Shown: piece by piece, positions 8,358 through 25,300 of the stretch | Numbering within the stretch: position 1 is the stretch's first letter | How the letters are laid out: each line of letters begins with the position of its first letter | Assembly: GCA_000002435.2 (NCBI GenBank) | Contig: CM018793.1 | Length of the DNA: 64,000 nt | Origin: Giardia intestinalis | Taxonomy: Eukaryota | Strand: one strand, 5' to 3' | The notes under the pieces: model-generated | The model's database searches: none | The model's input: only the letters and a program-made list of their open reading frames with translations | Told to the model about the DNA's origin: nothing | Program-made: the position numbers and the translations under genes

Positions 8358-8427
8358 CTGCATGCATAATTTTAGAGTTTCCCGCGTTAAAAAATCCATT
8401 AAATTCCGCCAATGTGGAAAATTTAAA

Positions 8428-10872
8428 ATGTTCAAGATCAAGGACTCCGACAGCTGGTTTTCTGCGGTCTCCGAAGGGAAGGCGAAGCTCGTTGCAGCGT
8501 CGGCCAAGTCCTTCAAGGGTTTTCGTAATGAGAACCAAGAAACTGCTCTCATCCTAGCAGCGAAGCTCAACCATCCGGATATTGTTGAAGCCTTAGCTGT
8601 GCACGAGGCGAGGCACACAGACAGCAATGGATATACTGCGCTTATGTGGGCAGCTAAGAACGGAGACGCCAGAATGGTCCGGGCCCTCATTAATAGCGAG
8701 CGTGATATTGTCTTGCCCGATGGGCGTGATGCGCTATCCTTGGCTGCAGAGGCGGGAAATTTGGAAACCACAAATGCCCTTGTCCCCTTCTTCGAGCTCG
8801 CTAGGCCTTCTACTGGACTTTCGGCTCTTGACTATGCGGCCCGTGCAAACCATGGAGAAGTAGTTAAGGCGCTCATTGCAGAGTTCGATCCGGCTGTGCA
8901 CGTACTCGAAGCAGCACTTCGGCAGGCAGAGATTATGAACCACGGGGAGCTAGCGTCCTACCTTAGGAGTGTTGTTGACTCTAAAGCAGATGGAGTTTCC
9001 CCCATAGGCTCCGCGGGTAGTAATTTTGTCTCTCGCCTAGCAACTCCGAATACTCATTCGCCGTGTGCTAGTGTTGTTCCTTTACAGACACACGCAAGCT
9101 ATGCAGACTGCGAACGGATGGCGGCCTATGCGCACAAGCTTGAGGATGAACTTAGGGAGGAGCGCAGTAAGACGCATATCGATGCTAACCGCATTCTAGG
9201 TAAGTCATACACCGACGAGGATCTTCGCATGTACATTGCGACAATGGAGGCCAAATTGGAAGCATCGGATCGTGAGCGTGTAAAGCTGCACGCAGAGATC
9301 ATGGAGCTTCGTCGGCACTACGGAGATTCGAAGAAGGCTGGTGCAGGTGATATGAATGTGGTTTCTCGTTCTCTAACCGAGCTTCAAAAGCTTAGAAAAG
9401 AAAACTCTGACCTTCAGGATGTTATCAAGAGCCAGACTAGCCGCATAAATGGTTTGGTTGCAACTAGCAAGCGTCAGAGTGAGTTGTTGCGTAGCATTAA
9501 CAAGTCTGGTGCTGATGGAGATAGCGCAATGGGGGCGACCAAGAGTATGCGTGAGTTACATAGTCTGGAGGAAAAGTTGCAGGAAACGGACACACAGTAT
9601 ACAAAACTAAGGAAAGAGCATGGGCGTTTGCGTGGAGAGCATGAAGATCTTAAGGAAAAGTACGAGGAGGCTTGCAAAATGCTGGCCACCAAAGAAAATG
9701 GCGAAGATGCAGTAAAGACCCTGAATGCGATGGAGTCTAAGTCAAGGGCGGAGCGTCAGAGAATGAATGACACGAAAATGATGTCGCACCGAAATAGAAG
9801 TAGCGCTAGCCCGAGCCATCGTGCTTGTGCTGAGCCTAAGAGCATAATTGAATCTCCCAAACGTGGTAGTTCTTATGGAACGATGGGACCGCCTAGACGC
9901 ACCGTTAGCAGGCTGACTGAGCAGAACATTCCTGTAATTGCGCCATCTAGTGGGGATGCAGATAGTTTCGCTGCCGCATTTGATAACACGTTGTCGAAGA
10001 CTCCAAAGGACTCCACTTATAAAACAGCCGGAACATATCAGGCGATAAAGAGTTCCAAGGAAAAAGACAAGGAAATTGCCCAACTTAAGGATGAGCTTTT
10101 TAATTGCTATTCTGCAGACGAGGTTGAAAAGCTGCACCGTGTAATTGAACTCCGTGAGGCTCAACTCGCAGATGTTACAAAGGAGCGTGATGCCTTAGGT
10201 GCTTACCTGGATCGTTACAACACGTCGCAGTATAATGCGCAACAGGTGGCAGACGAGAACGACCACTTGAAGCGAAGGATTGCTGCACGCGACGAGGCCA
10301 TCCATAAGATGACACGTGAGCTTTGTACCGTGGCGCGTGCCTCTAGATCAACCATGGAGTCCAAATTGCAGGAAAAGGACCAAGAAATTGCACGACTTAA
10401 TGAGAAGATTACTGCCTTACATGATGATTATATGCGTTTGAAGAATGACCCCAATATTCCGCAGCAGACCGCGCTCGGGATCGAGTCCCGGGAGAAGTAC
10501 CTCCGGATGATCGCAGACACGGAGCAGCAGAATCACGTCTACCGGAAGCTCATCCAGGACCAGCAGGCGCAGATCGGCATGCTGGTCGCGCAGCTGGGGG
10601 CGGCCGAGAGCCAGGCGCAAGCCCTCGCTGCTGACGGGCTTCGGGGGTCGGCAACCTGGGCCCCCAGCGAGGCGCAGCCAGCTCTGGGGCCGTTCCCGCA
10701 GTGCCCGCCCCAGTCCTCTGCCCGCAGCCCTCTGGATGCCCGTCTGCAGGACGTCGAGATCCTCGAGCGGGAGCAGATGGCGGCACAAAGCGGCGCAAAG
10801 GCAGCCTCTGACCGTCCCTGGACACCACCGAGCGCAGAGGGCTGTGCGCGGCCCGCAAGCTCATACTCATAA
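8428..10872 (+). CDS. Ankyrin-repeat + coiled-coil protein (21.1-like). Its last ~137 codons (10461-10872) lie inside inverted-repeat arm A and are visibly GC-rich. The ORF is open from 8362, 5 nt after the previous stop; the AT-rich stretch ending ...aaaatttaaaATG at 8428 looks like the real start (MFKIKDSDSWFSAV...).
   Basis: WFSAV N-terminal motif. Ankyrin repeats (ETALILAAKLNHPDIVEALA; GYTALMWAAKNGDARMVRALI). Long coiled coil. C-terminal Q/A-rich tail duplicated at 21947-22357. Confidence 0.7.
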   Translation: MFKIKDSDSWFSAVSEGKAKLVAASAKSFKGFRNENQETALILAAKLNHPDIVEALAVHEARHTDSNGYTALMWAAKNGDARMVRALINSERDIVLPDGRDALSLAAEAGNLETTNALVPFFELARPSTGLSALDYAARANHGEVVKALIAEFDPAVHVLEAALRQAEIMNHGELASYLRSVVDSKADGVSPIGSAGSNFVSRLATPNTHSPCASVVPLQTHASYADCERMAAYAHKLEDELREERSKTHIDANRILGKSYTDEDLRMYIATMEAKLEASDRERVKLHAEIMELRRHYGDSKKAGAGDMNVVSRSLTELQKLRKENSDLQDVIKSQTSRINGLVATSKRQSELLRSINKSGADGDSAMGATKSMRELHSLEEKLQETDTQYTKLRKEHGRLRGEHEDLKEKYEEACKMLATKENGEDAVKTLNAMESKSRAERQRMNDTKMMSHRNRSSASPSHRACAEPKSIIESPKRGSSYGTMGPPRRTVSRLTEQNIPVIAPSSGDADSFAAAFDNTLSKTPKDSTYKTAGTYQAIKSSKEKDKEIAQLKDELFNCYSADEVEKLHRVIELREAQLADVTKERDALGAYLDRYNTSQYNAQQVADENDHLKRRIAARDEAIHKMTRELCTVARASRSTMESKLQEKDQEIARLNEKITALHDDYMRLKNDPNIPQQTALGIESREKYLRMIADTEQQNHVYRKLIQDQQAQIGMLVAQLGAAESQAQALAADGLRGSATWAPSEAQPALGPFPQCPPQSSARSPLDARLQDVEILEREQMAAQSGAKAASDRPWTPPSAEGCARPASSYS

Positions 10873-10877
10873 GTAAA
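10871..10877 (+). promoter_or_regulatory. Putative Giardia-type polyadenylation signal AGTAAAC overlapping the TAA stop of the 8428-10872 gene.
   Basis: Matches the AGTRAAY consensus described for Giardia 3' ends and sits at the stop codon. Confidence 0.35.
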
Positions 10878-10939
10878 CACTTCTGTAAGTACTTCTGATA
10901 AAAAGAATTAAAATATAAATATATCTGGCGCGCCCCCAG

Positions 10940-11011
10940 TCCGGCGTAGTATAACGGCTAGAATGGTTGGTTCTCACCCAACAGATCCGGGTTCGATTCC
11001 CGGCGCCGGAG
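10940..11011 (+). tRNA. tRNA-Glu, anticodon CUC.
   Basis: Cloverleaf by hand. Acceptor TCCGGCG/CGCCGGA. Anticodon stem GTTGG/CCAAC with loop TTCTCAC (U33, CTC at 34-36, A37). T-arm CCGGG-TTCGATT-CCCGG. Discriminator G at 11011. 72 nt including discriminator. Confidence 0.85.
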
Positions 11012-12222
11012 CGTTTCCCGCCTTCCTTCGTCTTAGCATACGCCGCCCCACGGTGGGCCCAGACCCTAAGTATCGATTTGCAAAGACAGCTGACCGGACT
11101 GTCGCACAAGTAAGTAAGCTCGTGATCTGCAGCCAGTGATGATGCATCCATATTTAGTGAACAATAAACCAATTCCTAGAACTCCGGAATATAACTGGCT
11201 GTACTATGAGCCGACACAAGCCTTGAAGATAGATCTGCCACAACGTAATTAACTCTGCGCTGGGCGCCAAAGGTAGCCAGTCTATAGTGAGCTAGGCTCC
11301 ACAGGTCACATTTAGTATTGCATGCATGAAACGTGCTACTCCTCTACACGGCAAGTATAGCTTGTGAAAGAATGCACACTTGATTCTCGGTGTCTAGCTG
11401 CAAAGGTGATACATCTTTTAATGCATAGATGAATGGGTTTTTTGTAGCTCAGATAAAAAAGGTAGAATGGGCATTGGAAGAGCAAAACTCTAGAAGATAG
11501 GTTGGCATTCATTAAAAGGTAAGCTTCGAAGTGCACAAGTCTTTCAACCACATTCTCACTTTTAGTTTGAAGATTGTTCCACCTCATACAATCGGATTCT
11601 TTTGCAATCGCTGAAATTGTCATACCATCTCTTTCTAATTCTAACTTAATAGGAAACGCAACTACAAAGCCATTGGTTAATGGCCAACGTCACTATCATT
11701 ACATGAGCTATTAACTACTCATCTCACCATCTTTGTACTATGTTTAGCTTATCTTTTCGAAGAAGACTAGCCCGAGGTCAAATCTCTATAGCACCAGCTG
11801 GGCGTACCTCATAGGTATGCAGATTACTAGAAGTATACATTAATACTATGCTTAGTTTCCCCTTTAGTTATATTATTTACCTACATAGTAGAGAGATTGT
11901 AAATCGCTCGGAAGAAGAGTGAACTTCTAAAACAAATACTTAGTAGAATAAGATATGCGACACTACTGTTAGCTGTAGCGTCTACCGCAAAAGCGCCGGC
12001 CCAACGAATCTTTCTACAGTGGCGCGCAAAGTGTACTCGCGCACGCTACTGTCCTGACCTAGACATGGGACAGAAAATAGCCACTGATAAGAATTTATAC
12101 CTAACAAGATTTAGAGCGGTTTCAGTCGAATACTAATAAAGCGGAACCATTTATCTAGTCTAACTAGGGTAAGAATAGGTCCCGATTGTTCCAGTTTCAC
12201 AGAAACAGGAACGTAGATCTGC

Positions 12223-15200
12223 TCAAGCTGTCAATGGCCGGAGCCCGCTGGCCTGAGATTTATGCTTGGATGCCATCAAACTAAATGTGAGCCCGATGGT
12301 CCCGCCTACAAGAACGGTCACGCCAAGGGTGATCCCTGTGATCGCGCCTGGGCCGAGGCGGCGCTTGACCGACGAGCCTCCGCAGTAGTTCTCCAGGGGG
12401 AGGTTTCCGTCCGCACAACGGAGGCAGAGGACGGCGCCTGACCCTGCCTGCGCCTGGCAGAGCCCGCACCCGTGGATGCCTGCCATCCGAAGCCCCTGGG
12501 GCGCCGTCTGGTCGCAGGGCACACAGTCCCGGGGGCCTCCGAGGGGCGTCGCCTGGAAGTACCTGTCGGCACAGGCCAGACAGCTGGCTGCCGACGAGCA
12601 GGCGGCGCACGGAGAGGGGCATGCCAGGCAGCGGTCGCCCGCCAGGTGCCAGCCCCTCTTGCAGGAGGTGCAGACACCCCCGTCGCAACGGGCGCAACCG
12701 GCCGCGGTGCACGGGCTGCACGAGCCCCCGGAGAGCCCGTAGCCTTCCGCGCAGGCGTGGCACGTGACCCCCGCCCTTGCCCGGTCTGCCGCGCACACGG
12801 CACAGTGTGGAATTCCCGTGAAACCGTTCTGGCTTGTCACATCATCGCACGGGCGGCAATCGGACGGAGCAGAGACAGAGCTCTGCGTCGAGTAGTATCC
12901 CTGGCTGCACGCGCTGCATGTGGTGGCAGATGTGCAGCGGAGGCAACCAGGCGCGCAGGGGATGCATTCGCTGCCGCTTGTCCAGAAGCCCTCTGTCGGA
13001 CAGTCGCGGGGGCACAGGAGCATCCCGTCCAGAGTCAGCGCCTTGCGTCCACTCTCGCACGCCAGACAGACGACCGGGCCCACGCGATCAGCGAGGCGGC
13101 ACCTCTGGCAGCCGTCGACCCCTGTCCATCCTCCGCCTGCCCCCGCGTCGTTGCACAGCAGGCACCTGCTGGCGCTGGAGTGGGTCGGCCTGACCTCGAC
13201 GGCATTCTCGTTGCATCCTATGCACGCTATACTTTGCTCCCTACAGAGGCATTGCGGAGGGCAGATCTTGGGGACGCACTCTTCGCCGTTCCAGATGTGC
13301 TCTGGGACGCAGCTGGTGCATCTCGTGCTTGTACACGTTGCACAGTTGTCGATCGCGCACGGGATGCAGCTGTCAGCGGCCTCGTAGTACGTCATTGGAC
13401 AGACTGCATGGCAGGTCACCTCTGTCCCGGTCGAGAGCGCCTTGTAGCCCGGGAGACAGTCCTTGCACAGTGCGGGGCCCGCTACCTTCGGAGCCTCACA
13501 GAGCCTGCAGCCACTCACTCCCACCCAGCTGTCCCTGCCAGACGTGTCCGAGCAGGCAAGACAGGCTCCCAGGCCAGGCGTGGTGAACGTGCCAAAGTAT
13601 CCCTCGGCGCACTCTTTGCATTTATCAGCCCCCATACCATCGCACGTCTTGCACGCTGGGTGGCACGCAATGCAGGACGTGCTCTGGAGATAGTATCCGG
13701 CCCTGCAAGCAGTGCACGTGTTGGGGTCGTCTACGCACGCGCCGCAGTTGGGATCGGAGCAGCGCACGCAGCCCTTATCTGTCTTGGAAAAGCCTGCCTT
13801 GCATGCAGTGCACCCGGACGTCGACTCCGTGGTGTCTCCACAAATGCTCGTCCCCGGCGCCCTTTCCTTTGTGTAGCAGGCGCCCTCGAAGAGGAACATC
13901 CCGTCTCCGCAGTGCGAGCACACGCCCTTGCTGCAGATAAGTCCCTCCTTCGGCTCTGCGCACGTGCCATCCAGAGGAACCTCTCCGTCGATCAGGCAGC
14001 GCCCGCAGACGACCTGGCCGTCGACGACCACTGCATCGCGCTCATCGCAGATACCCGTGCCGGGGTACTCGCCTGCGGAGTAGCAGCCCCCCTGGTGGAG
14101 GAAGTAGCTCCCTCGGCACGCGGTGCAGCGGCCCTTCTTGGCGTCCTTTACGCATGGACCGGCAAGTGAGCGAGCTTCTCCAGGATAGAGTGTGCAGACG
14201 CCGTCGATCGGCACATAATCACTCGACGCGCACTGCGAGCACAGAGACCCGTCCATGACTGTGCAGGAGCCCCAACTGCAAGCGTCCTGCCCCACTCTTT
14301 TGCAGGGCTTCGTGCAGTATGCCCCGGCCCCGACGCCTGTCAGCGTGTAGGGCTGAATGCATTCTGTGCAGTACTTCACGTCTATCTCGCAGCTGGCGCA
14401 GTTGGAGACGGCGCAGGACATGCACGTCAGCGTCTCCTTGTTGTGACGGTAGCCGGGTCTGCACCGCCGACAGGTTCCGGCATCGCGGCCTGTTCCAAGG
14501 ACTTCGCAAATCCCACTTCCAGGAGTAGTCGTGATATCATAGCAGCCTCCCTCGTGGAAGAAGTAGTTCTCGGGACATATGACGCATAAACCGCTGGAGC
14601 ACGAGACACCATCTGGCACATCCTTTGTACACAGGCCATTTATTGGAAACTCTCCTGCAAGATTGCACTGCTTGCAATATGTGCGCCTTCCGACTGTCAG
14701 AAGCTCCCTACAAATGCCAGACCCGGGAATCGCGGCAGGGTCATAGCACCCGCCCATGTAGAGCATGTATCCGCGTAGGCACCCTGTGCAGACGCCCTTC
14801 CCCTTCTCGCAAACATAGTCTGTGTCATGCCCCGTGCAAGCCCCGTTGATCGGCCACTCGTCATCCAGCGCACACCTGGAACAGTACAGCGAGCCCATCG
14901 CCGTACAGCTGCCAGCCTTACAGTTACCAGACTCTGATCTACTGTCGTTGCAGCTTTGGATACACCGCGAGCCGTCCTCGCTAGGAATGTGCTTGTCCTT
15001 GCATCGCGTGCAGATGACCCTCTTTGGTGTCTCGCTTGGATAGCACTCTGTGCAGCCGTCAACGCCCGTGTATCCATTTGTTGCACCTGTATCATTACAT
15101 AGGATGCAGGACTCCTTTGTGGGATCGAGCAGGTCTGTGCTGTAGTACCCGGAGGCACACGATGTGCACACCCCTGCAACCGCTGAGTCGACGGCCACCG

Positions 15201-18200
15201 CGCAGACCACCGTTCCAGGCGAGCGTCCTATCTCGTAGCACCCCCCGGCGTGCAGGAAGAACCTTGGCCCGCAGCGTGTGCACGACGTGGGGCTTGGTGT
15301 GGCAGCGACACATTGCGATCTGATTGCCCTAGTGTTAGCCAATGCAACGCACGAGCCGTCGATCGGGACTTCCCCGTCTCGCTTGCATTGCTTGCAGATC
15401 GTGTACGGGCCCAGCGTAGCCTGGTGCTGGCTGTCACATATGGCAGTCCCAGCTGTTGCGCCTTTAGCATAGCAGCCCCCATAGTAGAGGAGGTGCGTGT
15501 CCTTGCAAGCCGCACACGTCCCGCTGGATGGGGTTGTACGGATGCAAGCGTCGTCATTTGCCTTGCACTTTCCGTCGATGATAACGCTGCTTAATAGCGC
15601 ACAGCGGCTGCATGCGAGCGTGCCGTTGACATTGCAGTATCCTGCAGCACAGGACGTGGGAAGCAATCCAACGGGGCATTCCTCAGTACATATGTTATTC
15701 CTCAGTGCAAATCTATCCTTGCAGACCTTACACCCAGTACTATCGCACTTCTTACACCCGGGTGTGCATGCAACACACGAGTTCCCACTGGCATAGTACC
15801 CATCCTGGCAAGAGGCGCAGGTATTTGCCGCATCGCACGTCAAGCAGTGGAGCACGCTGCAAGCAACACACTTTCCGGCCGCAAGATAGAAGCCGTCTGC
15901 GCATCCCGTGCATTTTGTTGCACTATCCTGGCACGTCTTGCAGCTCTTATCACACATCTGACAGAACTCAGCAGACTCATACATCCCATCCGGACACTTA
16001 GTAAAGCATGCAACCGTTGCAGGACTTCCATCCTTGGTTATCTGGAATGACTTAACACCCTGTTTGCACGACCTGCAGATGCCATCTCCCTTGACGGTGC
16101 AGTCATCCGAGACCTTGCACTCCCCATCAACGGGCACCTCATCCTTCTGCTTACACTTCGCACAAAACGACCCTGCGCCCGATGTCACGACATCCTGGGC
16201 GTCGCAGATGTCCCCCGCCTCGAACGACCCCGCTTCATAGCAGCCACCCTTGTACTTGATGTATCTGTGGGTGCAGTATTTGCAGGTGCCATTAGCTTGT
16301 TTATATTGTATGCACACGCCTGCGGCCACTGAAGCACACACGCCGTTGACTGGGCCCTCGGCGTCAGCAGCGCACTGGGAGCAGTAGAACGTGCCCAGGA
16401 CATCACACTTGTCCTTTCTGCACCTGTGCTCCTTGGGGTCTGCCTCTGCCTCAACGCACGTTTGCACGCACTCCGTTCCCCCGTTCATTGGTCTGTAGAA
16501 CTGCTCGCAGGCAACACAGACCAGGAGTCCGTTGGAAACCTTGCAGCTCTTGCAGTGGGGTATGCCCTTCAGCGTGTCGCTGTTCTCTGTGCACGGAACA
16601 CACGAGTCGCTGATACTTGAGCGGTCGGGGGGCGCGTAGTATCCCTCTTTACAAATATCACAGATCCCATTGTCAGATCCGATGCTTTTGCATAGTATAG
16701 TTCCGGGAGCAAGGTCTGCTGAGACACAACTCCCTTTAAGCAGAAAATGATTGTCAACACAATAATAACATCGTCCAGTAGGCACACGGGCCAAAACGCA
16801 CGGAGAAAGCTTGCTGTCAGACATAGGAATGCAGTGCCCATTAACTGGCAGATCAGATAAAATGCTACATCGGAAGCAATACGTCACGCCATCCATTACA
16901 GCATACTCGCCACAAATGGCGTTTCCTGGATAGGTCTTTGGATTATAGCAACCATTCTTATAATAAAAGAATAATCCTGCGCATCCAGTGCATGTACCAT
17001 TTGGCACACCCGACTTCTTACATATATTCTCCTTATCGACACTAGTACATTTGCCATCGATAAGAGCATCTGTATTCAACGCGCACTTTGAACAAAAGGT
17101 AGCTCCAAGCACATTACAAAAATCAACGGCACACTGACCTGATCTAGGTTGTAGCGAGTCAGTCGGGAGAGGGCAGCTTTCCTCGCATACACCGTTAACC
17201 AATAAATAGCGATCTAGACAGCTTGTGCAGTGTCCTGGACCAGAGATTAGGGGAGCTAAACACGTTCTACAAAAAGCTATACCGGTGTAGCCGAAAATTC
17301 CACCTACATCGCTACAGTGAATGCACGATTGAATCGTTGAGCTTCGAACAGGATTGAGATAATAAGTTGGTCCACATACTTCGCAAACGCCTGCTCTTGC
17401 TTTAGTGCATATCTGTGGATAAAATTCTGGTGTAAAGCAAACTGTACGGTGCAAGAAATATCCAGCTCCACAACCAGTGCACACTCCCTCTTTGCACGTA
17501 TTTCCATAAGTTTCGGTGGTGCAAGATCCGTTAATAGGATATTCTGTTTCGAGAGTGCATTTCTTACAATATGTAAATCCATAACCTGTAAGTGTGTGTT
17601 CCTTTTCACATATCGGTATTACTGGCTTAATCGTATTGTAACATCCACCGTAGTAGAGAAGATAGCCTTTTGAGCATCTCCGGCATCTACCGCCCTCCAT
17701 AACAGCACACTCGGGAGCATCTTCCCGTAGAGGCCGGCAAACCCCATCTATGGGAACCTCACGTTCTATACTACACCTTTCGCAGAATGTCTTATCACGA
17801 ACAACACATCCTCCGTAAATGCAGCCCCCAGGCGTGAGTTCCTCCGTGCAAGCTTTAACACATGAGTCCTTACCTTCATTCTTTTGAAGCTGATAACTAT
17901 AAGCGCAACTATTGCAAACGTCCACGCCCCCATCACAGTTTACGCAGTACTTGATGTTACATGGTCTGCATTCTGATCCAACATGGGTATATCCAGAGGC
18001 ACAAACTGAACAAGTAGCTGTGTCGTCGACATCCTTACAAATACTGAGGCCGATGGGCGTTCCTTTTTCATAGCATCCTCCTTTGTAAGGAAAATACCGA
18101 GGTGGACACTCTGTGCAGCGGCCAGATACTACTTTGGCGCCCATTAAGGCAGATGTGCACTGTCCATTTATGGGGCACTCATTATCATTTGCGCAACAAG

Positions 18201-19812
18201 AACAAAGTGCAGACGAGAAAATGTTGCAATGATCAGACTTACATGACCCCGGAGCAAGACCGTTTGTCCAGCACGATATTTCGCAGTGATTTTCTGTTAG
18301 GAGATATCCCCTTTCGCAGACTGTGCATTGCGCTCGTTGGCCTCGTGGAAGAGGTAAGCATTTTGCACAGTGAGCTATGCCAGCGTTATCGTACTGAAGA
18401 AGTACATCATTACAATACTTGCACATACCTTTCCCCATCGAAAACACTTGAAAGAATATTTCTGGAGCACAAGAAGTACAATCATTCGCGTTAGGACCAA
18501 GGCATGAAGCACAATTTGAATGGCATGGAATACAATCTCCTCTGTTGCGAAAATAGTTGTCTACACACGCTTTGCATTTCCCAGCATTATCCACCTCGTT
18601 ACATATGACGTTTCCTGGAGCAGATTCTGGGGAATAACATCCACCTTGGTAAATGAAGTAATTCTTACCACAAGAGGTACACTTAATAGAGACAGGTGTT
18701 GGTAGACCGCCGGCTGAATCTCGACAACCAGAAGTTACAACTAGCGGATTATTGTATGGCACACATACTCCGTTGATTGGAACGAAACCAGGCGTACCAC
18801 ATTTCGCACAAAAGGTTGCACCCCTAATATCAGTAGTGTAGGCACATGCCTTAAGTCCTAGCTCAGTATCCACACGATAACATCCGCCTTGAAAAAGGAT
18901 GTATCCCTTTCCACAGTTATCACACATTCCCAACGAGATGGATATATGGAGACAAATATTCTGGTCATTAGAAGTGCAAACTCCGTTAATCGGTACTTCG
19001 GTGCCAAGAGAACAGTGGGCACAGAGTTTGTTCTCAAAAGCAGTACATCCATCTTCAGCACACTTTCCAGACTTGGCTATTTTACTTTTATCACAAGTGA
19101 GAATACATGTACGAGTCTGTGAATCATATGAATAGTTATCAATACAAAGAAGACACTCATTAGGCGTTGCACCCGTACACATCAAGCAATTGCTAGGGCA
19201 AGTAAGACACTGATTTCCAGCCAAATAATATTGTGCTTGACAAGAGAGGCATTTCAAAGAATCACTGGTACTCATTGTACAAGAGCGACAATTTTCTATA
19301 CCGTAAGGTTTATCTGAACACCTTTTACAGAGAGACCCATCAAGAAAACGATCCGGAGGACAACTCAGGCACTGATTTTCAGAACTTCCAGAACAAGAAC
19401 TGCAGTGAGCATGACAGGTCTTACAAGTCTGAGGAGTTGCTTGAGTGTCGAGATAGTAACCTAAAGAGCATATTTTGCAAAGATTCCTGGCTAGATCAAC
19501 GCAAATAAGATTTCCAGGACTATAAAGTATATTGTAACACCCGCCCTCATGAATGAAATAATTCTTTTCTACACATGAAGAACAGGTTTTAGCAGAGTTT
19601 TTAAGAGGCTTACCTGCCTCAGAAGCGCAGCCGGAGGCCACAGCCCTGGGGTCGTCGTACGGGATACAGAGTCCGTTTATAGGAACCTCACCAGGGGTGG
19701 CACACTCAGAACAATACCGGCCCTCTAAAATAGTGCATTTTCCTATAGCGCACTCTCCAGGTCGATTCCCATGGGTACATGAGAGTGCAAGTCCAAAAAT
19801 GATCGCCAGCAT
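12223..19812 (-). CDS. High-cysteine membrane protein (HCMP), 2529 aa. It has a signal peptide, dozens of CXXC/EGF-like modules, one C-terminal TM helix and a short cytoplasmic tail.
   Basis: N-terminal MLAIIFGLALSCTHG signal-like segment. Pervasive C-x2-C and GGCY motifs (e.g. CTSCGKNYFIYQGGCY). C-terminus GITLGVTVLVGGTIGLTFSLMASKHKSQASGLRPLTA (TM + tail). ATG at 19810-19812. The 3' ~4.4 kb is visibly GC-rich; the 5' ~3.1 kb is AT-richer. Confidence 0.85.
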   Translation of the reverse strand: MLAIIFGLALSCTHGNRPGECAIGKCTILEGRYCSECATPGEVPINGLCIPYDDPRAVASGCASEAGKPLKNSAKTCSSCVEKNYFIHEGGCYNILYSPGNLICVDLARNLCKICSLGYYLDTQATPQTCKTCHAHCSSCSGSSENQCLSCPPDRFLDGSLCKRCSDKPYGIENCRSCTMSTSDSLKCLSCQAQYYLAGNQCLTCPSNCLMCTGATPNECLLCIDNYSYDSQTRTCILTCDKSKIAKSGKCAEDGCTAFENKLCAHCSLGTEVPINGVCTSNDQNICLHISISLGMCDNCGKGYILFQGGCYRVDTELGLKACAYTTDIRGATFCAKCGTPGFVPINGVCVPYNNPLVVTSGCRDSAGGLPTPVSIKCTSCGKNYFIYQGGCYSPESAPGNVICNEVDNAGKCKACVDNYFRNRGDCIPCHSNCASCLGPNANDCTSCAPEIFFQVFSMGKGMCKYCNDVLLQYDNAGIAHCAKCLPLPRGQRAQCTVCERGYLLTENHCEISCWTNGLAPGSCKSDHCNIFSSALCSCCANDNECPINGQCTSALMGAKVVSGRCTECPPRYFPYKGGCYEKGTPIGLSICKDVDDTATCSVCASGYTHVGSECRPCNIKYCVNCDGGVDVCNSCAYSYQLQKNEGKDSCVKACTEELTPGGCIYGGCVVRDKTFCERCSIEREVPIDGVCRPLREDAPECAVMEGGRCRRCSKGYLLYYGGCYNTIKPVIPICEKEHTLTGYGFTYCKKCTLETEYPINGSCTTETYGNTCKEGVCTGCGAGYFLHRTVCFTPEFYPQICTKARAGVCEVCGPTYYLNPVRSSTIQSCIHCSDVGGIFGYTGIAFCRTCLAPLISGPGHCTSCLDRYLLVNGVCEESCPLPTDSLQPRSGQCAVDFCNVLGATFCSKCALNTDALIDGKCTSVDKENICKKSGVPNGTCTGCAGLFFYYKNGCYNPKTYPGNAICGEYAVMDGVTYCFRCSILSDLPVNGHCIPMSDSKLSPCVLARVPTGRCYYCVDNHFLLKGSCVSADLAPGTILCKSIGSDNGICDICKEGYYAPPDRSSISDSCVPCTENSDTLKGIPHCKSCKVSNGLLVCVACEQFYRPMNGGTECVQTCVEAEADPKEHRCRKDKCDVLGTFYCSQCAADAEGPVNGVCASVAAGVCIQYKQANGTCKYCTHRYIKYKGGCYEAGSFEAGDICDAQDVVTSGAGSFCAKCKQKDEVPVDGECKVSDDCTVKGDGICRSCKQGVKSFQITKDGSPATVACFTKCPDGMYESAEFCQMCDKSCKTCQDSATKCTGCADGFYLAAGKCVACSVLHCLTCDAANTCASCQDGYYASGNSCVACTPGCKKCDSTGCKVCKDRFALRNNICTEECPVGLLPTSCAAGYCNVNGTLACSRCALLSSVIIDGKCKANDDACIRTTPSSGTCAACKDTHLLYYGGCYAKGATAGTAICDSQHQATLGPYTICKQCKRDGEVPIDGSCVALANTRAIRSQCVAATPSPTSCTRCGPRFFLHAGGCYEIGRSPGTVVCAVAVDSAVAGVCTSCASGYYSTDLLDPTKESCILCNDTGATNGYTGVDGCTECYPSETPKRVICTRCKDKHIPSEDGSRCIQSCNDSRSESGNCKAGSCTAMGSLYCSRCALDDEWPINGACTGHDTDYVCEKGKGVCTGCLRGYMLYMGGCYDPAAIPGSGICRELLTVGRRTYCKQCNLAGEFPINGLCTKDVPDGVSCSSGLCVICPENYFFHEGGCYDITTTPGSGICEVLGTGRDAGTCRRCRPGYRHNKETLTCMSCAVSNCASCEIDVKYCTECIQPYTLTGVGAGAYCTKPCKRVGQDACSWGSCTVMDGSLCSQCASSDYVPIDGVCTLYPGEARSLAGPCVKDAKKGRCTACRGSYFLHQGGCYSAGEYPGTGICDERDAVVVDGQVVCGRCLIDGEVPLDGTCAEPKEGLICSKGVCSHCGDGMFLFEGACYTKERAPGTSICGDTTESTSGCTACKAGFSKTDKGCVRCSDPNCGACVDDPNTCTACRAGYYLQSTSCIACHPACKTCDGMGADKCKECAEGYFGTFTTPGLGACLACSDTSGRDSWVGVSGCRLCEAPKVAGPALCKDCLPGYKALSTGTEVTCHAVCPMTYYEAADSCIPCAIDNCATCTSTRCTSCVPEHIWNGEECVPKICPPQCLCREQSIACIGCNENAVEVRPTHSSASRCLLCNDAGAGGGWTGVDGCQRCRLADRVGPVVCLACESGRKALTLDGMLLCPRDCPTEGFWTSGSECIPCAPGCLRCTSATTCSACSQGYYSTQSSVSAPSDCRPCDDVTSQNGFTGIPHCAVCAADRARAGVTCHACAEGYGLSGGSCSPCTAAGCARCDGGVCTSCKRGWHLAGDRCLACPSPCAACSSAASCLACADRYFQATPLGGPRDCVPCDQTAPQGLRMAGIHGCGLCQAQAGSGAVLCLRCADGNLPLENYCGGSSVKRRLGPGAITGITLGVTVLVGGTIGLTFSLMASKHKSQASGLRPLTA

Positions 19813-19999
19813 GTGATGCTATTTTTACATAAACGCCTTTATACATTAGAATCACACATCATAAATTTGGCTTTTCCAGAGCTAATTTCCTATTTTTGAA
19901 TACAAAAATATATTCCCATCTTTCAATCTGGTCTATTTATCACACTACAGTAGTGTTATTTAAACGCTCGTATGTGATGCTCCTAAAGATGGTTGAATC

Positions 20000-20596
20000 G
20001 TGCTAATTTTGCATTGTATTATGTGCGCGGCAGACCGGGCAAGGGCGGGGGTCACGTGCCACGCCTGCGCGGAAGGCTACGGGCTCTCCGGGGGCTCGTG
20101 CAGCCCGTGCACCGCGGCCGGTTGCGCCCGTTGCGACGGGGGTGTCTGCACCTCCTGCAAGAGGGGCTGGCACCTGGCGGGCGACCGCTGCCTGGCATGC
20201 CCCTCTCCGTGCGCCGCCTGCTCGTCGGCAGCCAGCTGTCTGGCCTGTGCCGACAGGTACTTCCAGGCGACGCCCCTCGGAGGCCCCCGGGACTGTGTGC
20301 CCTGCGACCAGACGGCGCCCCAGGGGCTTCGGATGGCAGGCATCCACGGGTGCGGGCTCTGCCAGGCGCAGGCAGGGTCAGGCGCCGTCCTCTGCCTCCG
20401 TTGTGCGGACGGAAACCTCCCCCTGGAGAACTACTGCGGAGGCTCGTCGGTCAAGCGCCGCCTCGGCCCAGGCGCGATCACAGGGATCACCCTTGGCGTG
20501 ACCGTTCTTGTAGGCGGGACCATCGGGCTCACATTTAGTTTGATGGCATCCAAGCATAAATCTCAGGCCAGCGGGCTCCGGCCATTGACAGCTTGA
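20000..20596 (+). pseudogene. Detached copy of the HCMP C-terminal ~190 codons (cysteine modules + TM + ...KHKSQASGLRPLTA tail). It has no signal peptide and no upstream gene body. Probably a gene fragment created by the inverted duplication, but an ATG at 20000 abuts the shared AT-rich promoter region.
   Basis: Protein identical to the C-terminus of 12223-19812 from CAADRARAGVTCHACAEGY onward. The first 8 codons (MLILHCIM) are unique. Confidence 0.5.
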
Positions 20597-21807
20597 GCAG
20601 ATCTACGTTCCTGTTTCTGTGAAACTGGAACAATCGGGACCTATTCTTACCCTAGTTAGACTAGATAAATGGTTCCGCTTTATTAGTATTCGACTGAAAC
20701 CGCTCTAAATCTTGTTAGGTATAAATTCTTATCAGTGGCTATTTTCTGTCCCATGTCTAGGTCAGGACAGTAGCGTGCGCGAGTACACTTTGCGCGCCAC
20801 TGTAGAAAGATTCGTTGGGCCGGCGCTTTTGCGGTAGACGCTACAGCTAACAGTAGTGTCGCATATCTTATTCTACTAAGTATTTGTTTTAGAAGTTCAC
20901 TCTTCTTCCGAGCGATTTACAATCTCTCTACTATGTAGGTAAATAATATAACTAAAGGGGAAACTAAGCATAGTATTAATGTATACTTCTAGTAATCTGC
21001 ATACCTATGAGGTACGCCCAGCTGGTGCTATAGAGATTTGACCTCGGGCTAGTCTTCTTCGAAAAGATAAGCTAAACATAGTACAAAGATGGTGAGATGA
21101 GTAGTTAATAGCTCATGTAATGATAGTGACGTTGGCCATTAACCAATGGCTTTGTAGTTGCGTTTCCTATTAAGTTAGAATTAGAAAGAGATGGTATGAC
21201 AATTTCAGCGATTGCAAAAGAATCCGATTGTATGAGGTGGAACAATCTTCAAACTAAAAGTGAGAATGTGGTTGAAAGACTTGTGCACTTCGAAGCTTAC
21301 CTTTTAATGAATGCCAACCTATCTTCTAGAGTTTTGCTCTTCCAATGCCCATTCTACCTTTTTTATCTGAGCTACAAAAAACCCATTCATCTATGCATTA
21401 AAAGATGTATCACCTTTGCAGCTAGACACCGAGAATCAAGTGTGCATTCTTTCACAAGCTATACTTGCCGTGTAGAGGAGTAGCACGTTTCATGCATGCA
21501 ATACTAAATGTGACCTGTGGAGCCTAGCTCACTATAGACTGGCTACCTTTGGCGCCCAGCGCAGAGTTAATTACGTTGTGGCAGATCTATCTTCAAGGCT
21601 TGTGTCGGCTCATAGTACAGCCAGTTATATTCCGGAGTTCTAGGAATTGGTTTATTGTTCACTAAATATGGATGCATCATCACTGGCTGCAGATCACGAG
21701 CTTACTTACTTGTGCGACAGTCCGGTCAGCTGTCTTTGCAAATCGATACTTAGGGTCTGGGCCCACCGTGGGGCGGCGTATGCTAAGACGAAGGAAGGCG
21801 GGAAACG

Positions 21808-21879
21808 CTCCGGCGCCGGGAATCGAACCCGGATCTGTTGGGTGAGAACCAACCATTCTAGCCGTTATACTACGCCGGA
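21808..21879 (-). tRNA. Second copy of tRNA-Glu (CUC), inside IR arm B.
   Basis: Exact reverse complement of 10940-11011: ctccggcgccgggaatcgaacccggatctgttgggtgagaaccaaccattctagccgttatactacgccgga. Confidence 0.85.
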
Positions 21880-21946
21880 CTGGGGGCGCGCCAGATATAT
21901 TTATATTTTAATTCTTTTTATCAGAAGTACTTACAGAAGTGTTTAC

Positions 21947-22312
21947 TTATGAGTATGAGCTTGCGGGCCGCGCACAGCCCTCTGCGCTCGGTGGTGTCCA
22001 GGGACGGTCAGAGGCTGCCTTTGCGCCGCTTTGTGCCGCCATCTGCTCCCGCTCGAGGATCTCGACGTCCTGCAGACGGGCATCCAGAGGGCTGCGGGCA
22101 GAGGACTGGGGCGGGCACTGCGGGAACGGCCCCAGAGCTGGCTGCGCCTCGCTGGGGGCCCAGGTTGCCGACCCCCGAAGCCCGTCAGCAGCGAGGGCTT
22201 GCGCCTGGCTCTCGGCCGCCCCCAGCTGCGCGACCAGCATGCCGATCTGCGCCTGCTGGTCCTGGATGAGCTTCCGGTAGACGTGATTCTGCTGCTCCGT
22301 GTCTGCGATCAT
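21947..22312 (-). pseudogene. Orphan copy of the GC-rich C-terminal tail of the 21.1-like gene (MIADTEQQNHVYRKLIQDQQAQ...PASSYS). It lies immediately 3' of, and out of frame (+2) with, the stop of the 22363-27345 gene.
   Basis: 121-aa ORF identical to the C-terminus of 8428-10872. Preceded by the TAG stop of the upstream ankyrin gene, with no start context. Confidence 0.5.
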
Positions 22313-22362
22313 CCGGAGGTACTTCTCCCGGGACTCGATCCCGAGCGCGGTCTGCTGTGAAA

Positions 22363-25300
22363 CTACCGTGCTTTTTCGAAGGGAAGTAACAAGCGAATAA
22401 TTTCAGTTCTTTCTGCCTTTATAGCCAAATCAAGTGCAGTAGCCCCGTCAGCCCTCTCCACGCCAGATTCGTATTCTCTGAGCACACTTACGGCATTTTT
22501 GTTTCCCATTTGTGATGCGAGCATTAAGGCTGTTGTACCATCTGGCCTGACACATCCTACATGGCGCAACTGTCGCCTCAAAACTCCAATTGGTGCATTC
22601 GAAAGTACAGCTCTCATCAGAGGAGTATCATCATGGTGTTCTTTAAGTAGAGCATCGCCATAAGAATCTTCGGTCTCGATCTTATGATTCGTTGCTGTAT
22701 TAATGGAGGAAGCAATGCCAGATGAAGACTCTAGATATCCATCTAGTTTCCTATCTGCCATGAGCATTCTTAGCTTCTTATTAGTTTGAGAAAGAGCATC
22801 AAGTCTTTGTAATGCTCCATCATGCTCCTTGCTTAGCTGCTCATATGACTCCTTATACTCACTTAAATGGTTTCTAGTGGAAATAAGTTGCTGTTCGATA
22901 TCATGGACCTGCCTATTTAGAGCTGTCGTCGTTTCATCCATATGAGATTTGAGATTGATAAATGAATGCACTGTTCTATTCAGTTTATCTTGTAATTCCT
23001 GCTTCTCTGACTCTAATAGCTCAACTGTACTAGATAAATTAATATCAGGCTCGGTAGCAGTGTCTGTCTGTGTCTGCGCTATAAGTGCTGTTAATGCTAG
23101 GTTTTCGTTAGCAAGTTGAGAAGCAGATGTGCGTAACTCTAATTGCTCTCTACGAGCTACCTGAAGCTCTGATGTGATATTGGACAGTTCCCTCTCAAGT
23201 TGAAGCCCTCGGCTAGTTTCTAACTCCAGCTGCCTCTTGGCAGATTCTAATTCTATAGAAATCTCGTAATTCTTACCCTTTAGTTCATCTTTCTGTTGTT
23301 TGAGGTCCAGTAACTCTGCATTCCTCTTGTCACTTATAATGTTATCATGTTCAGTCAAAGCTATGCGCTCTTGAAGCTGATTTTCTGCCTTCCTTAGCAA
23401 TGCTGTAACGGTGCTTATTTGATTTTCCTTTGAAGCTAGCTCTTCACGAAGATACCGTATTTCGTTCTGATGAATAGATAGCTCATTCTCAGCGTTATCT
23501 ATGATATCACGTGTCGCTTCAGTTTCTAGTAATTCATGACGTAAAGAGCGATTGAGAAGTTCTGTCTGGTGCAACTTAGATTGTATAGATGCCATCTGAA
23601 TACTCAGATGTTGGACAGTTTGAACAAGTGAGTTAGGAACGGCTACTTTATCTACTTCTGTGTATTTTTGTATTGAGTTGGAAAGTGTGCGACTGAGAGA
23701 TAAATGGTTAAATGCAGAGTTTCTTGCATCTGTGCTTATATTACAAAGATCTAATGCTGAATCTTCCTCGTTTCCACCACAAATACTCTGTAGCAGCTCC
23801 GCATATTGTATCCCCGAGAGTGTTATAATAGAATCAGCAGGAGAAAGCTCCGAATAACAGTCATGTAAAGATACGTTCAGATCGCTCTTCTTTACCGTGG
23901 TTGTTTGAGAAGTGCTCCGGGGAACTATAATGTTAACAATACTCGGGTCAGCATCATATTCATTAATCTCATTCAAATTCTCTGCTTGTTGCATTATAAC
24001 ATCGCGTGCTGGCTGGTTGTCAACGTCTGCATTGGAATGCAATTTTGTTGATGTAGACTGATATATTGCTGTTTGAACAATCTTGTCGCTGAATTGTATC
24101 ACATCGTGGTTTTCTAAATTATCCACGGTTTGAGTCTCTGTTGAAATAGCATTTTGGCGTTGCAAAATGGTGCGCCGCAACTCAACTAATTGTGCATTAA
24201 CATCTAAGAGCTCATCTTGTAACTCATCATTTCGTATCTGTAATTCCTGTCTATTTTTAATTATAGAATCAGATGCATCTCTTGCACGTTGAACTTCACT
24301 TTGCAATTGCTGGATTCGAAGATCCTTTTCTTGCACTTCAAGGTTAAGCTTATGGATATGCTGTTGAAGCGTTTCTTCAGTCGTTTTGTTCGCTGACGCT
24401 AATAGCTGACCTGCTATTTGCTCATTTGCAATGGATAACTTATTCTGAAGGTCATCATTTTGAGTATTGAGGGAGTCACATAATTCCTCAAGGTAACGTA
24501 GTCGTGCAGAGGTATCAGATGTGGGCACATGTCCTTTGACATCATGTTCTTGAGATAAACTATATAGGCCTTTTGGAGCAGAGGCTATTTGGGTTTCTAG
24601 TTGTAAACTGGAAACATGAGGCTCAGGATTGGCCGATCCGGATGTATCTAGATGTACAAGTACAGATGAAAGTTGTATGGTATCTGAATCTGATATCGCA
24701 GGACGTTTGTCTGTCTGTGTAAGAGTTAGCACGTTGGCTGATTCTTCTAAATCTAAATAGTCTCGAATAATGTGTGTCGTCTGTCCATATGCATTATCTG
24801 ATCCACTAGACCTAGAGATACTTCTAGACAATATTAGGCTTTGAGCCATGATAGACCGATCAACCAGTTGACATGATTGATCCGAGATTTGTCTTAGCTT
24901 CTCTGATAGCTGCACAATCGTATCATTTGCTAACAGCAGATCGTGTTCTGCTTGGGTATTCAGAGCAATTTGTTCAGTAAGTTGAATAATTTGAACATCC
25001 TTGGCTTTAAGTAAAGGTATCATCTCCTGTAGGTTCTCTACTTCTAGCATCTTTTCTTCTAACTGTTTTTTTAAATCGACTAGGTCATCTGTCGAGTGGG
25101 CAGATGCAACAGTCTCGTATTCTGCTAATTTTGCATCTAAAATGTGAACCAGTTTGGATAGCTCATCATTCTCATCTCTCACTTGCTGTAGTTCTAACAT
25201 CACGGATTTGACATCAGTATTATCAGAAACATCAGCAAGTTTATCAGACACTGCACAATCTGGGGTACGTTGTAGCTCTTCCTCCCGACGTTTCTCTAAC

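What the first reader, a model, noticed from the sequence alone, without database searches (positions are those of the whole stretch)
10461..22357. Inverted repeat of ~2.33 kb, apparently 100% identical, bracketing a 7.6-kb HCMP gene (arms 10461-12794 and 20025-22357, spacer ~7.2 kb)
The two arms are reverse complements of each other with no mismatch in every place I checked. They include non-coding AT-rich sequence, where no selection would maintain identity. Perfect identity over 2.3 kb implies a very recent inverted duplication, ongoing gene conversion, or an assembly artefact; inverted-duplication chimeras are a known long-read failure mode. If real, homologous recombination between the arms would flip the HCMP gene body together with its promoter, a flip-flop like plastid IRs or the yeast 2-micron plasmid. 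The repeat also provides a substrate for deletions and ectopic exchange in a surface-antigen gene family. Arm A looks like the original copy: both genes read through it in frame. Arm B strands a 190-codon HCMP C-terminal fragment and a 121-codon 21.1 tail as orphan pieces.
Basis: seen in the sequence. Interest (0 to 1): 0.8.

Follow-up and report, generated by a model that had tools for sequence, protein, structure and literature searches.

The report
Ancient self-correcting inverted repeat in Giardia
The 2.3-kb perfect inverted repeat around this Giardia surface-protein gene is real and old: it is present in at least three deeply diverged Giardia lineages, and its two arms stay identical because they keep copying each other, not because the duplication is recent or misassembled.

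Summary
Window 10462-12797 is the exact reverse complement of 20022-22357 (2336 nt, 0 mismatches), with a 7224-nt spacer. The window is Giardia intestinalis WB (assemblage AI).

Each arm carries four things:
- the last 136 codons of an ankyrin-repeat (protein 21.1/ARP-1) gene;
- an intact tRNA-Glu(CTC);
- 1.2 kb of non-coding DNA;
- the last 190 codons of a 2529-aa HCMP gene.

The repeat is not an assembly artefact. All four arm/unique junctions occur in independent 454 contigs of isolate DH. At least 20 short-read assemblies break exactly k-1 = 30 nt inside arm B.

The repeat is not recent. The syntenic locus in P15 (assemblage E) has the same repeat (2328 nt perfect, boundaries within 5-9 nt of WB). 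GS (assemblage B) has it too, with arms 99.6% alike. Between lineages the arms differ strongly: WB and P15 arms are 79% identical overall and 74% in the non-coding core. DH arms share 24 derived differences from WB.

This is concerted evolution by arm-to-arm gene conversion. Transition-saturated homology just beyond the inner (HCMP-side) arm boundary shows that arm B is the copy.

Spacer flip-flop stays untested. WB and P15 have the same orientation. This is a new member of a known kind, comparable to Giardia's identical inverted VSP pairs and to sex-chromosome palindromes.

The parts
10462..12797 (.). Arm A of the inverted repeat (perfect run, 2336 nt)
   Evidence: 0 mismatches against the reverse complement of 20022-22357.
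20022..22357 (.). Arm B of the inverted repeat (the derived copy)
   Evidence: The outer junction is confirmed by Logan contigs that end at 22328 and by DH contig L018. The inner junction is confirmed by DH contig L019.
12798..20021 (-). Spacer of 7224 nt: HCMP codons 1-2338 plus 209 nt upstream of the start codon
   Evidence: It is collinear and in the same orientation in P15. DH contig L019 covers the whole spacer together with both inner junctions.
12223..19812 (-). HCMP 'TMK-like' gene, 2529 aa (KAE8305131.1 / XP_001709278.1). Its last 190 codons and stop codon lie in arm A.
   Evidence: Pfam VSP PF03302, E = 2e-171. The P15 ortholog has the same length and belongs to the same 90%-identity protein cluster.
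8362..10872 (+). Ankyrin-repeat protein (Protein 21.1 / ARP-1, XP_001709281.1). Its last 136 codons and stop codon lie in arm A.
   Evidence: Pfam Ank hits; source names.
10940..11012 (+). tRNA-Glu(CTC), copy in arm A
   Evidence: ARAGORN. Rfam tRNA, 56.4 bits. 97% identical between WB and P15.
21807..21879 (-). tRNA-Glu(CTC), copy in arm B
   Evidence: ARAGORN. Both copies are also present in P15, and a copy lies in GS arm B.
11013..12222 (.). Non-coding core of arm A, 1210 nt (mirror in arm B: 20597-21806)
   Evidence: No Rfam hit and only short ORFs. WB and P15 are 73.8% identical here (312 substitutions, 33 gap columns), yet the two arms are identical within each genome. It cannot be aligned with GS by blastn.
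20022..20596 (+). Orphan HCMP 3' fragment in arm B (190 codons plus stop)
   Evidence: Pfam VSP E = 2.7e-14 on the ORF at 20000-20596. Translation shown.
21947..22357 (-). Orphan copy of the ankyrin-gene tail in arm B (136 codons plus stop; the ATG-ORF is 121 aa)
   Evidence: A 121-aa ORF is called at the same place in P15.
22363..27345 (-). 1660-aa ankyrin-repeat gene (KAE8305134.1). Its stop codon lies 5 nt outside arm B.
   Evidence: The junction directly after the TAG stop is conserved in DH, P15 and GS.
19972..20021 (.). Decayed margin of arm B (inner side): transition-saturated remnant of HCMP coding sequence, matching 12798-12847
   Evidence: In WB the first 17 nt give 9 matches, 8 transitions and 0 transversions. 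In P15 the first 37 nt give 14 matches, 19 transitions and 4 transversions (P = 5e-7).

Best explanation
This is a genuine, ancient inverted duplication in the Giardia duodenalis species complex. It works like a small chromosomal palindrome.

Origin (inferred). A 2.3-2.4-kb block was copied in inverted orientation into the short gap between the HCMP promoter and the stop codon of the next ankyrin gene. The block comprised the 3' end of an ankyrin-repeat gene, a tRNA-Glu(CTC), an intergenic stretch and the 3' end of the HCMP gene. This happened before assemblages A, E and B diverged.

Maintenance. Since then the two arms have been homogenised again and again by intrachromosomal (arm-to-arm) gene conversion. 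A break or stalled fork in one arm is repaired from the other arm. New substitutions are therefore either erased or copied into both arms. The arms evolve at the normal rate between lineages but stay identical within a genome.

Edges. Conversion cannot run past the end of homology and is inefficient at the last few bases. The margins therefore escape correction and decay, slowly eroding the arms.

Inversion. A crossover between the arms would invert the 7.2-kb spacer. Because the arms are identical, both isomers encode the same full-length HCMP and ankyrin proteins, so inversion would be neutral for coding capacity.

Shown: the repeat exists, it is orthologous across lineages, its arms evolve in concert, and the inner margin has decayed. 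Inferred: the repair pathway, the frequency of conversion, and whether crossovers or inversions occur.
For: 1. Repeat in WB: a perfect 2336-nt inverted repeat.

2. Source: Giardia intestinalis WB, with all three genes also present in the 2007 Sanger annotation.

3. P15 (assemblage E): contig ACVC01000185.1 is collinear with window 29765-2206 at 84.6% identity in a single alignment. It carries the same repeat: 2328 nt perfect, about 7.2-kb spacer, boundaries shifted by only 9 nt (outer) and 5 nt (inner).

4. WB arm versus P15 arm: 79% identity, with 440 mismatches and 25 gap openings. By segment: ankyrin tail 88.8%, tRNA 97.3%, non-coding core 73.8%, HCMP 3' end 87.0%. These are ordinary rates for each class of sequence.

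5. DH (assemblage AII, 454 assembly): separate contigs cross X|A (L020), A|spacer and spacer|B (L019, 8207 nt) and B|Y (L018). The DH arms have 0 differences over the inner 460 nt and 2 differences over the outer 476 nt. Both differences lie within 15 nt of the edge. The arms share 13 + 11 derived differences from WB.

6. GS_B (assemblage B): the repeat is present, with ankyrin tail, tRNA-Glu and HCMP 3' fragment after the 1660-aa ortholog. The two arms differ at 6 transitions and one 2-nt indel over 1415 nt.

7. Short-read contigs: assemblage A contigs from at least 20 runs end at 22328, exactly 30 nt (k-1) inside arm B. An assemblage B contig ends 36 nt after the stop codon, which is 6 nt to the GS repeat boundary plus 30 nt inside it.

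8. Decayed margin: it is dominated by transitions, in line with the transition/transversion ratio of 3.8-6.2 measured at this locus.
Against: - No conversion event was observed directly. Concerted evolution is inferred from the phylogenetic pattern.
- The perfect arm identity in the P15 and DH 454 assemblies could be partly an assembler effect, because repeat reads may be pooled. That would hide only small differences, not the 21% seen between lineages.
- Four Logan contigs (L001-L004) run from the 836-aa gene across the arm A outer boundary without the expected break at 10491. Either the Y|B junction k-mers were missing in those runs (as in L013, which stops at 22345) or those isolates differ. 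I could not decide which.
- The GS arms are not perfect (0.4% different). That difference may be allelic heterozygosity rather than a real difference between arms.
Confidence: 0.9

Rival explanations
1. Assembly artefact: an inverted-duplication chimera created by long-read assembly of the WB genome.
For: Perfect identity over 2.3 kb, including non-coding DNA, in a PacBio assembly. Such chimeras are a known failure mode of long-read assembly (own knowledge).
Against: All four junctions exist in 454 contigs of a different isolate, DH. The whole structure is present in the P15 contig and in GS_B contigs. Illumina de Bruijn contigs from at least 20 runs branch exactly at the arm B boundary.
Confidence: 0.01
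2. A very recent inverted duplication in the WB lineage that has not yet had time to diverge. This is the explanation Adam et al. 2010 proposed for identical inverted vsp pairs.
For: Zero differences between the arms, with abrupt boundaries. The literature interprets identical vsp pairs as probably recent (PMC2996952).
Against: The same repeat is present in assemblages AII, E and B, at the same junction directly after the stop codon of the 1660-aa gene and with the same inner boundary. The arms have accumulated about 21% divergence between A and E. The decayed margins are saturated with transitions, which indicates great age.
Confidence: 0.02
3. Purifying selection on both copies, without gene conversion, keeps the arms identical.
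For: The arms contain functional pieces: a tRNA, two gene 3' ends and possibly poly(A) signals.
Against: The 1210-nt non-coding core changes freely between lineages. It is 73.8% identical between WB and P15 and cannot be aligned with GS, yet it is identical between arms in each genome. Selection cannot make 312 substitutions occur twice in parallel.
Confidence: 0.01
4. Flip-flop element. Homologous crossovers between the arms invert the HCMP body and its promoter frequently, so both isomers coexist in a culture. This would resemble plastid inverted repeats. It would act in addition to gene conversion, and may or may not have a regulatory role.
For: The arms are 2.3 kb of perfect homology in inverted orientation. 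The promoter-proximal 209 nt travels with the spacer. Either isomer rebuilds an intact HCMP gene because the arms are identical. Many inversions were predicted within WB from nanopore reads (PMC7048089).
Against: WB and P15 assemblies show the same spacer orientation. That is only a 1-in-2 coincidence if flipping were free. No data here can separate the isomers, because the junction sequences are identical in both. No functional difference between the isomers is apparent.
Confidence: 0.3

Closest known systems
Identical inverted pairs of vsp genes in Giardia. WB: 14 pairs (Adam et al. 2010, PMC2996952) or 19 pairs (Xu et al. 2020, PMC7000408). G. muris: 7 pairs (PMC7641422).
   Same: Same organism and the same cysteine-rich surface-protein superfamily. 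Inverted orientation, identity that extends into non-coding flanks up to an abrupt divergence point, a kilobase-scale spacer, and a tendency to break short-read assemblies.
   Different: Here the duplicated unit is not a whole gene. It is the last 190 codons of the HCMP, a tRNA-Glu and the tail of a neighbouring ankyrin gene. The spacer is the 7.2-kb body of the HCMP itself, not 2-4 kb of intergenic DNA. The vsp pairs were interpreted as recent duplications. This repeat is shown to be conserved across assemblages A, E and B and to evolve in concert.
Palindromes of mammalian Y and X chromosomes, maintained by arm-to-arm gene conversion (Hallast et al. 2013, PMC3723533; Jackson et al. 2021, PMC8981503).
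   Same: Inverted arms separated by a unique spacer. Arm identity is above 99.9% within a genome while the orthologous arms diverge between species. Conversion dominates and inversions are rare (abstracts).
   Different: Scale: 2.3-kb arms against 9 kb to 1.45 Mb. The host is a tetraploid, binucleate protist with no demonstrated meiosis. GC-biased conversion was not tested here, and the non-coding core of the arms is AT-rich.
Plastid genome inverted repeats and the yeast 2-micron plasmid flip-flop
   Same: Inverted repeats bracket a segment that can invert by recombination. In plastids the two copies are also homogenised by copy correction.
   Different: 2-micron inversion depends on the site-specific Flp recombinase acting at FRT sites, and nothing of that kind was looked for or seen here. 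Plastid isomers are equimolar in a high-copy organelle genome. At this locus no isomers have been demonstrated.

Membership tests
Inverted repeat (palindrome) under concerted evolution by gene conversion | Two arms in inverted orientation, nearly identical within one genome | tested here: met
   WB: 2336 nt, 0 mismatches. P15: 2328 nt, 0 mismatches. DH: 2 differences in the 936 nt compared. GS: 6 substitutions and 1 indel in 1415 nt.
Inverted repeat (palindrome) under concerted evolution by gene conversion | The repeat is orthologous in diverged lineages (same flanks, same junctions) | tested here: met
   The 27.6-kb locus is collinear in P15. Boundaries lie within 5-9 nt of WB. The junction directly after the stop codon of the 1660-aa gene is the same in WB, DH, P15 and GS.
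Inverted repeat (palindrome) under concerted evolution by gene conversion | Divergence of arms between lineages far exceeds divergence between arms within a genome, including at unconstrained sites | tested here: met
   WB and P15 arms are 79% identical, and the non-coding core 73.8% (312 substitutions), against 0 differences within each genome. DH arms share 24 derived differences from WB.
Inverted repeat (palindrome) under concerted evolution by gene conversion | Direct observation of conversion tracts (paralogous variants gained or lost along a genealogy) | not testable with these tools
   This needs population-level long-read or phased data. Only consensus contigs were available.
Giardia identical inverted gene pair (sensu Adam et al. 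2010) | Two complete, identical ORFs of the cysteine-rich family in head-to-head or tail-to-tail orientation | tested here: not met
   Only the last 190 codons of the HCMP are duplicated. Arm B has no complete HCMP ORF.
Giardia identical inverted gene pair (sensu Adam et al. 2010) | Identity runs into the flanks up to an abrupt divergence point; spacer of 2-4 kb | tested here: inconclusive
   Abrupt boundaries: yes. The spacer is 7.2 kb and is the gene body, so it falls outside the 2190-3847 bp range reported.
Flip-flop invertible segment (plastid inverted-repeat type or 2-micron type) | Both orientations of the spacer coexist in a population | not testable with these tools
   Junction sequences are the same in both isomers, so reads longer than an arm are required. 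WB and P15 assemblies have the same orientation.
Long-read inverted-duplication assembly chimera | Junctions are absent from independent data sets and technologies | tested here: not met
   All four junctions are present in DH 454 contigs. The structure is present in P15 and GS_B. Illumina graph contigs branch at the boundary.

The most novel reading that the evidence does not exclude
Arm B is retained by selection, not by inertia, because the inverted repeat has a function. Three possible functions remain open.

(a) Source of long hairpin or antisense RNA. Read-through from the 1660-aa gene into the HCMP gene would give an RNA with a 2.3-kb stem. Transcription leaving the HCMP promoter in the other direction would be antisense to the tail of the 836-aa ankyrin mRNA. 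Either would feed Giardia's Dicer/Argonaute system and couple HCMP or ankyrin expression to RNA silencing.

(b) Invertible cassette.

(c) Built-in repair template, whose arm identity tracks the same homogenising process that erases allelic heterozygosity. The arms show 0 differences in the assembled WB sequence and 0.4% in GS; own knowledge puts allelic heterozygosity very low in WB and near 0.5% in GS.

Nothing in my data excludes these readings. A 2.3-kb apparently useless copy has survived in a very compact genome since before assemblages A and B split, which is at least suggestive.
Probability: 0.1. Interest if true: 0.75.

Novelty: new member of a known kind. Interest (0 to 1): 0.5.

Why it matters
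Perfectly identical inverted duplicates in Giardia have been called cryptic and were provisionally attributed to recent duplication (PMC2996952). This locus shows that at least one of them is old and is kept identical by gene conversion.

That has three consequences:
- Identity cannot be used to date duplicates in this genome.
- The locus provides a naturally occurring reporter for intrachromosomal homologous recombination. Giardia's sexual or parasexual recombination and its near-absence of heterozygosity in assemblage A are long-standing puzzles.
- The locus predicts how such repeats erode, through decaying margins and an edge deletion in assemblage B.

It also settles a practical point. The repeat in the WB reference genome is not a misassembly. 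Reads mapping to 10462-12797 and 20022-22357 are genuinely two-copy, and the two copies include two tRNA-Glu(CTC) genes.

Tried and rejected
- Exact look-up of the full HCMP protein in public contigs found nothing. The likely reason is that short-read contigs break inside the gene at the arm boundary.
- The first homolog found for the HCMP (P0001, 68% identity) turned out to be a paralog at a non-syntenic P15 locus without a repeat. The true ortholog came from the cluster listing.
- Look-up of a 95-aa ORF inside the arm, meant to collect arm contigs, returned only one contig.
- I considered a RIP-like or deaminase process to explain the all-transition mismatches at the arm edges. I rejected it because transitions outnumber transversions 3.8-6.2 to 1 everywhere at this locus.
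- I tried to find this locus among the inversions and inverted duplications predicted by Pollo et al. 2020. Their supplementary files held no searchable match.
- A scan of JGI metagenome contigs for the Y|arm B junction gave 0 hits.
- Rfam found nothing in the arm except the tRNA.
- I looked for a poly(A)-signal argument that arm B serves as the 3' UTR of the 1660-aa gene. The motif pattern is suggestive but too weak to use.
- I could not explain why Logan contigs L001-L004 cross the arm A outer boundary without a break.

Full report
**Observation**

The repeat finder reports a single inverted pair in the region, 10457-12814 / 20005-22362. It is the only inverted repeat of at least 60 nt in the whole 64-kb window. 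A base-by-base comparison shows a mismatch-free run of 2336 nt, 10462-12797 against 20022-22357. The run is flanked by a few partially matching bases, and the spacer is 7224 nt.

**Source and anatomy**

Exact-sequence look-ups identify the window as Giardia intestinalis WB clone C6, on the 4.02-Mb chromosome contig of the PacBio reference. The genes are:
- 8362-10872 (+): Protein 21.1 / ankyrin repeat protein 1 (XP_001709281.1).
- 12223-19812 (-): "High cysteine membrane protein TMK-like", 2529 aa (KAE8305131.1 / XP_001709278.1), Pfam VSP E = 2e-171.
- 22363-27345 (-): a 1660-aa ankyrin repeat protein (KAE8305134.1).

Arm A contains, in order:
- the last 136 codons and stop codon of the 836-aa ankyrin gene;
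- an intact tRNA-Glu(CTC) at 10940-11012;
- 1210 nt with no Rfam hit and only short ORFs;
- the last 190 codons and stop codon of the HCMP.

Arm B mirrors all of this. It lies between the 209 nt upstream of the HCMP start codon and a point 5 nt past the stop codon of the 1660-aa gene. Arm B therefore holds a second tRNA-Glu(CTC) (21807-21879, -), an orphan HCMP 3' fragment and an orphan ankyrin tail.

**Not an artefact**

Three kinds of independent data contain the junctions.

First, short-read de Bruijn-graph assemblies (Logan) that carry the 1660-aa gene are 100% identical to the window. Nine of the ten contigs shown end at position 22328, and one of these is an identical contig found in 20 or more runs. 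Position 22328 is exactly 30 nt (k-1 for k = 31) inside arm B. A graph branch at the repeat boundary would produce exactly this.

Second, the 454 assembly of isolate DH (assemblage AII) has separate contigs that cross every junction:
- AHGT01000065 (L020) runs from the 836-aa gene 476 nt into arm A.
- AHGT01000136 (L019, 8207 nt) holds 460 nt of arm B, the whole spacer and 523 nt of arm A.
- AHGT01000037 (L018) runs from the 1660-aa gene 503 nt into arm B.

Third, the P15 and GS_B assemblies carry the same structure, as described next.

**Not recent**

The P15 (assemblage E) contig ACVC01000185.1 aligns with window 29765-2206 as one collinear block at 84.6% identity. It contains an inverted repeat with a perfect run of 2328 nt and a spacer of about 7.2 kb. 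Its perfect run starts 9 nt further in at the outer edge and ends 5 nt earlier at the inner edge than in WB.

In GS_B (assemblage B), the DNA after the stop codon of the 1660-aa ortholog is an ankyrin-tail fragment, a tRNA-Glu(CTC), a stretch that does not align with WB by blastn, and an HCMP 3' fragment. The other arm follows the 810-aa ortholog of the 836-aa gene on a different contig. The two GS arms differ at six transitions and one 2-nt indel over 1415 nt. The GS arm is about 260 nt shorter at its outer end, although the junction still follows TAG TTT. This looks like a deletion at the edge of arm B. An assemblage B short-read contig ends 36 nt after the stop codon. That is 6 nt to the boundary plus 30 nt inside the repeat.

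**Concerted evolution**

The arms are anything but conserved between lineages. WB and P15 arms are 79% identical, with 440 mismatches and 25 gap openings. Identity by segment:

| Segment | WB vs P15 identity |
|---|---|
| Ankyrin tail | 88.8% |
| tRNA-Glu | 97.3% |
| Non-coding core (1210 nt) | 73.8% (312 substitutions, 33 gap columns) |
| HCMP 3' end | 87.0% |
| HCMP body (spacer) | 86.5% |
| 1660-aa gene | 87.3% |
| Two unique intergenic stretches | about 79% |

The arms therefore evolve at ordinary rates, yet the two arms of each genome show no differences.

On a shorter time scale the pattern is the same. The DH arms carry 13 (inner 460 nt) and 11 (outer 476 nt) differences from WB that are shared by both arms. 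Only two differences are arm-specific, and both lie within 15 nt of the outer edge.

Parallel mutation or selection cannot produce this pattern. Repeated copying of one arm from the other can. From established theory for palindromes (own knowledge), steady-state arm divergence is roughly 2 x mutation rate / conversion rate. Fewer than one difference in 2336 nt then implies a per-site conversion rate thousands of times the mutation rate.

**Decaying margins**

Just beyond the perfect run on the inner side, the two flanks still resemble each other in a peculiar way.
- In WB the first 17 nt show 9 matches, 8 transitions and no transversion.
- In P15 the first 37 nt show 14 matches, 19 transitions and 4 transversions. 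The probability of 4 or fewer transversions by chance is 5e-7.
- The arm B side is the A/T-rich version of the arm A side, and the arm A side is HCMP coding sequence.

Transitions outnumber transversions 3.8-6.2 to 1 throughout this locus. This is therefore ordinary mutational decay and needs no special process. The decay has three implications:
- The original copy reached at least 40-50 nt further into the HCMP gene.
- The last bases of homology escape homogenisation, so the arms erode slowly.

The outer edge shows only a short version of this: 5 nt in WB, about 9-12 nt in P15, and the two edge differences in DH.

**Mechanism and function**

The best-supported mechanism is homologous repair of one arm from the other without crossover. 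Shown: the pattern of concerted evolution. Inferred: the repair pathway.

A crossover would invert the spacer. Because the arms are identical, the flipped isomer would again encode a full-length HCMP, which would then read into arm B, and a full-length 836-aa protein. Inversion is therefore neutral for coding capacity. WB and P15 have the same orientation, which is uninformative if flipping is free and weakly favours rarity. Junction sequences do not distinguish the isomers, so only reads longer than an arm can decide.

The visible consequences of the repeat are a second intact tRNA-Glu(CTC) gene and two orphan gene fragments. The fragments stay open only because they are continually overwritten from the functional copies. 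I found no evidence for a regulatory role.

**Comparison with known systems**

Giardia genomes are known to contain identical inverted pairs of vsp genes: 14 or 19 pairs in WB and 7 in G. muris. In these pairs identity runs into the flanks up to an abrupt divergence point. The original description considered them probably recent duplications and "cryptic".

The present repeat shares the inverted geometry and the abrupt boundaries but differs in three ways:
- It duplicates gene ends and a tRNA rather than whole genes.
- Its spacer is the 7.2-kb gene body.
- It is demonstrably ancient.

In behaviour it matches the palindromes of mammalian sex chromosomes, whose arms are kept more than 99.9% identical by gene conversion while diverging between species, with rare inversions. 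My literature searches found no report of cross-assemblage conservation or concerted evolution of a Giardia inverted repeat, but the library is incomplete.

**Verdict**

The flip-flop idea is open. The finding is a new, well-documented member of a known kind, with moderate interest. It corrects the assumption that identical means recent for Giardia duplicates and offers a natural reporter for recombination in this organism.

**Unresolved**

- Four Logan contigs cross the arm A outer boundary without a break.
- It is unknown whether spacer inversion isomers exist.
- It is unclear whether the 0.4% arm difference in GS is allelic.

Noticed in passing
window 44876-50641 (-), repeat array 45828-50627: A 1921-aa VSP-family gene (Pfam VSP E = 1.7e-83) contains 21 head-to-tail copies of a 225-bp (75-aa) unit. 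The listed 300-nt windows are 100% identical except the one at the 50.6-kb end (88%). A second VSP-family gene lies next to it at 42063-44786 (-). Tandem-repeat vsp genes are known in WB (PMC2996952).
   Followed up: partly
window 21947 and 22358-22362; L017 7444-7457; L022 near 15138: In WB and DH, the first Giardia-type poly(A) motif (AGTRAAY) after the stop codon of the 1660-aa gene is 416 nt downstream, inside arm B. It is the same motif that overlaps the stop codon of the ankyrin tail. In GS the motif is at +152. In P15, substitutions in the decayed arm edge have created a new AGTAAAC at +7. Arm B may therefore supply the 3' UTR and poly(A) site of the 1660-aa gene. The evidence is weak: the motif occurs 0.21 times per kb per strand by chance, and the HCMP gene has none.
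   Followed up: partly
L001-L004 (window 10462-10888 and 10462-12348): Four short-read contigs run from the 836-aa gene across the arm A outer boundary with no break at 10491. Three of them stop at exactly 10888 and one at 12348. Either the arm B junction k-mers were missing in those runs or those isolates differ at the locus.
   Followed up: no
L022 14987-16949 and L023 12287-13701 (GS_B): In assemblage B the arm starts about 260 nt further inside the ankyrin tail, at ...CGTAGCCCCCTGGAC (encoding RSPLDARLQDV), while the junction after TAG TTT is kept. This looks like a deletion at the outer edge of arm B. The six differences between the GS arms are all transitions and are spread evenly.
   Followed up: partly
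L015 (P15 contig ACVC01000054.1): P15 has a second TMK-like HCMP (2537 aa, 68% identical to the WB protein) at a non-syntenic locus, between a 1671-aa gene and a 282-aa gene. The intergenic gaps there are only 212 and 55 nt, so there is no room for an inverted repeat.
   Followed up: partly
P0036, P0037 (Logan contigs of 18.3-18.4 kb): Orthologs of the 1660-aa protein at 70% and 68% identity, presumably from other assemblages, sit on contigs close in length to the WB contig (18.8 kb) that is bounded by arm B. This hints that the repeat boundary may exist there too.
   Followed up: no
one search hits P0002-P0005: Large Tetrahymena proteins (2941-3855 aa), one of them annotated as leishmanolysin family, match the Giardia HCMP at E = 1e-62 to 1e-77. 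They carry the Pfam VSP domain.
   Followed up: no
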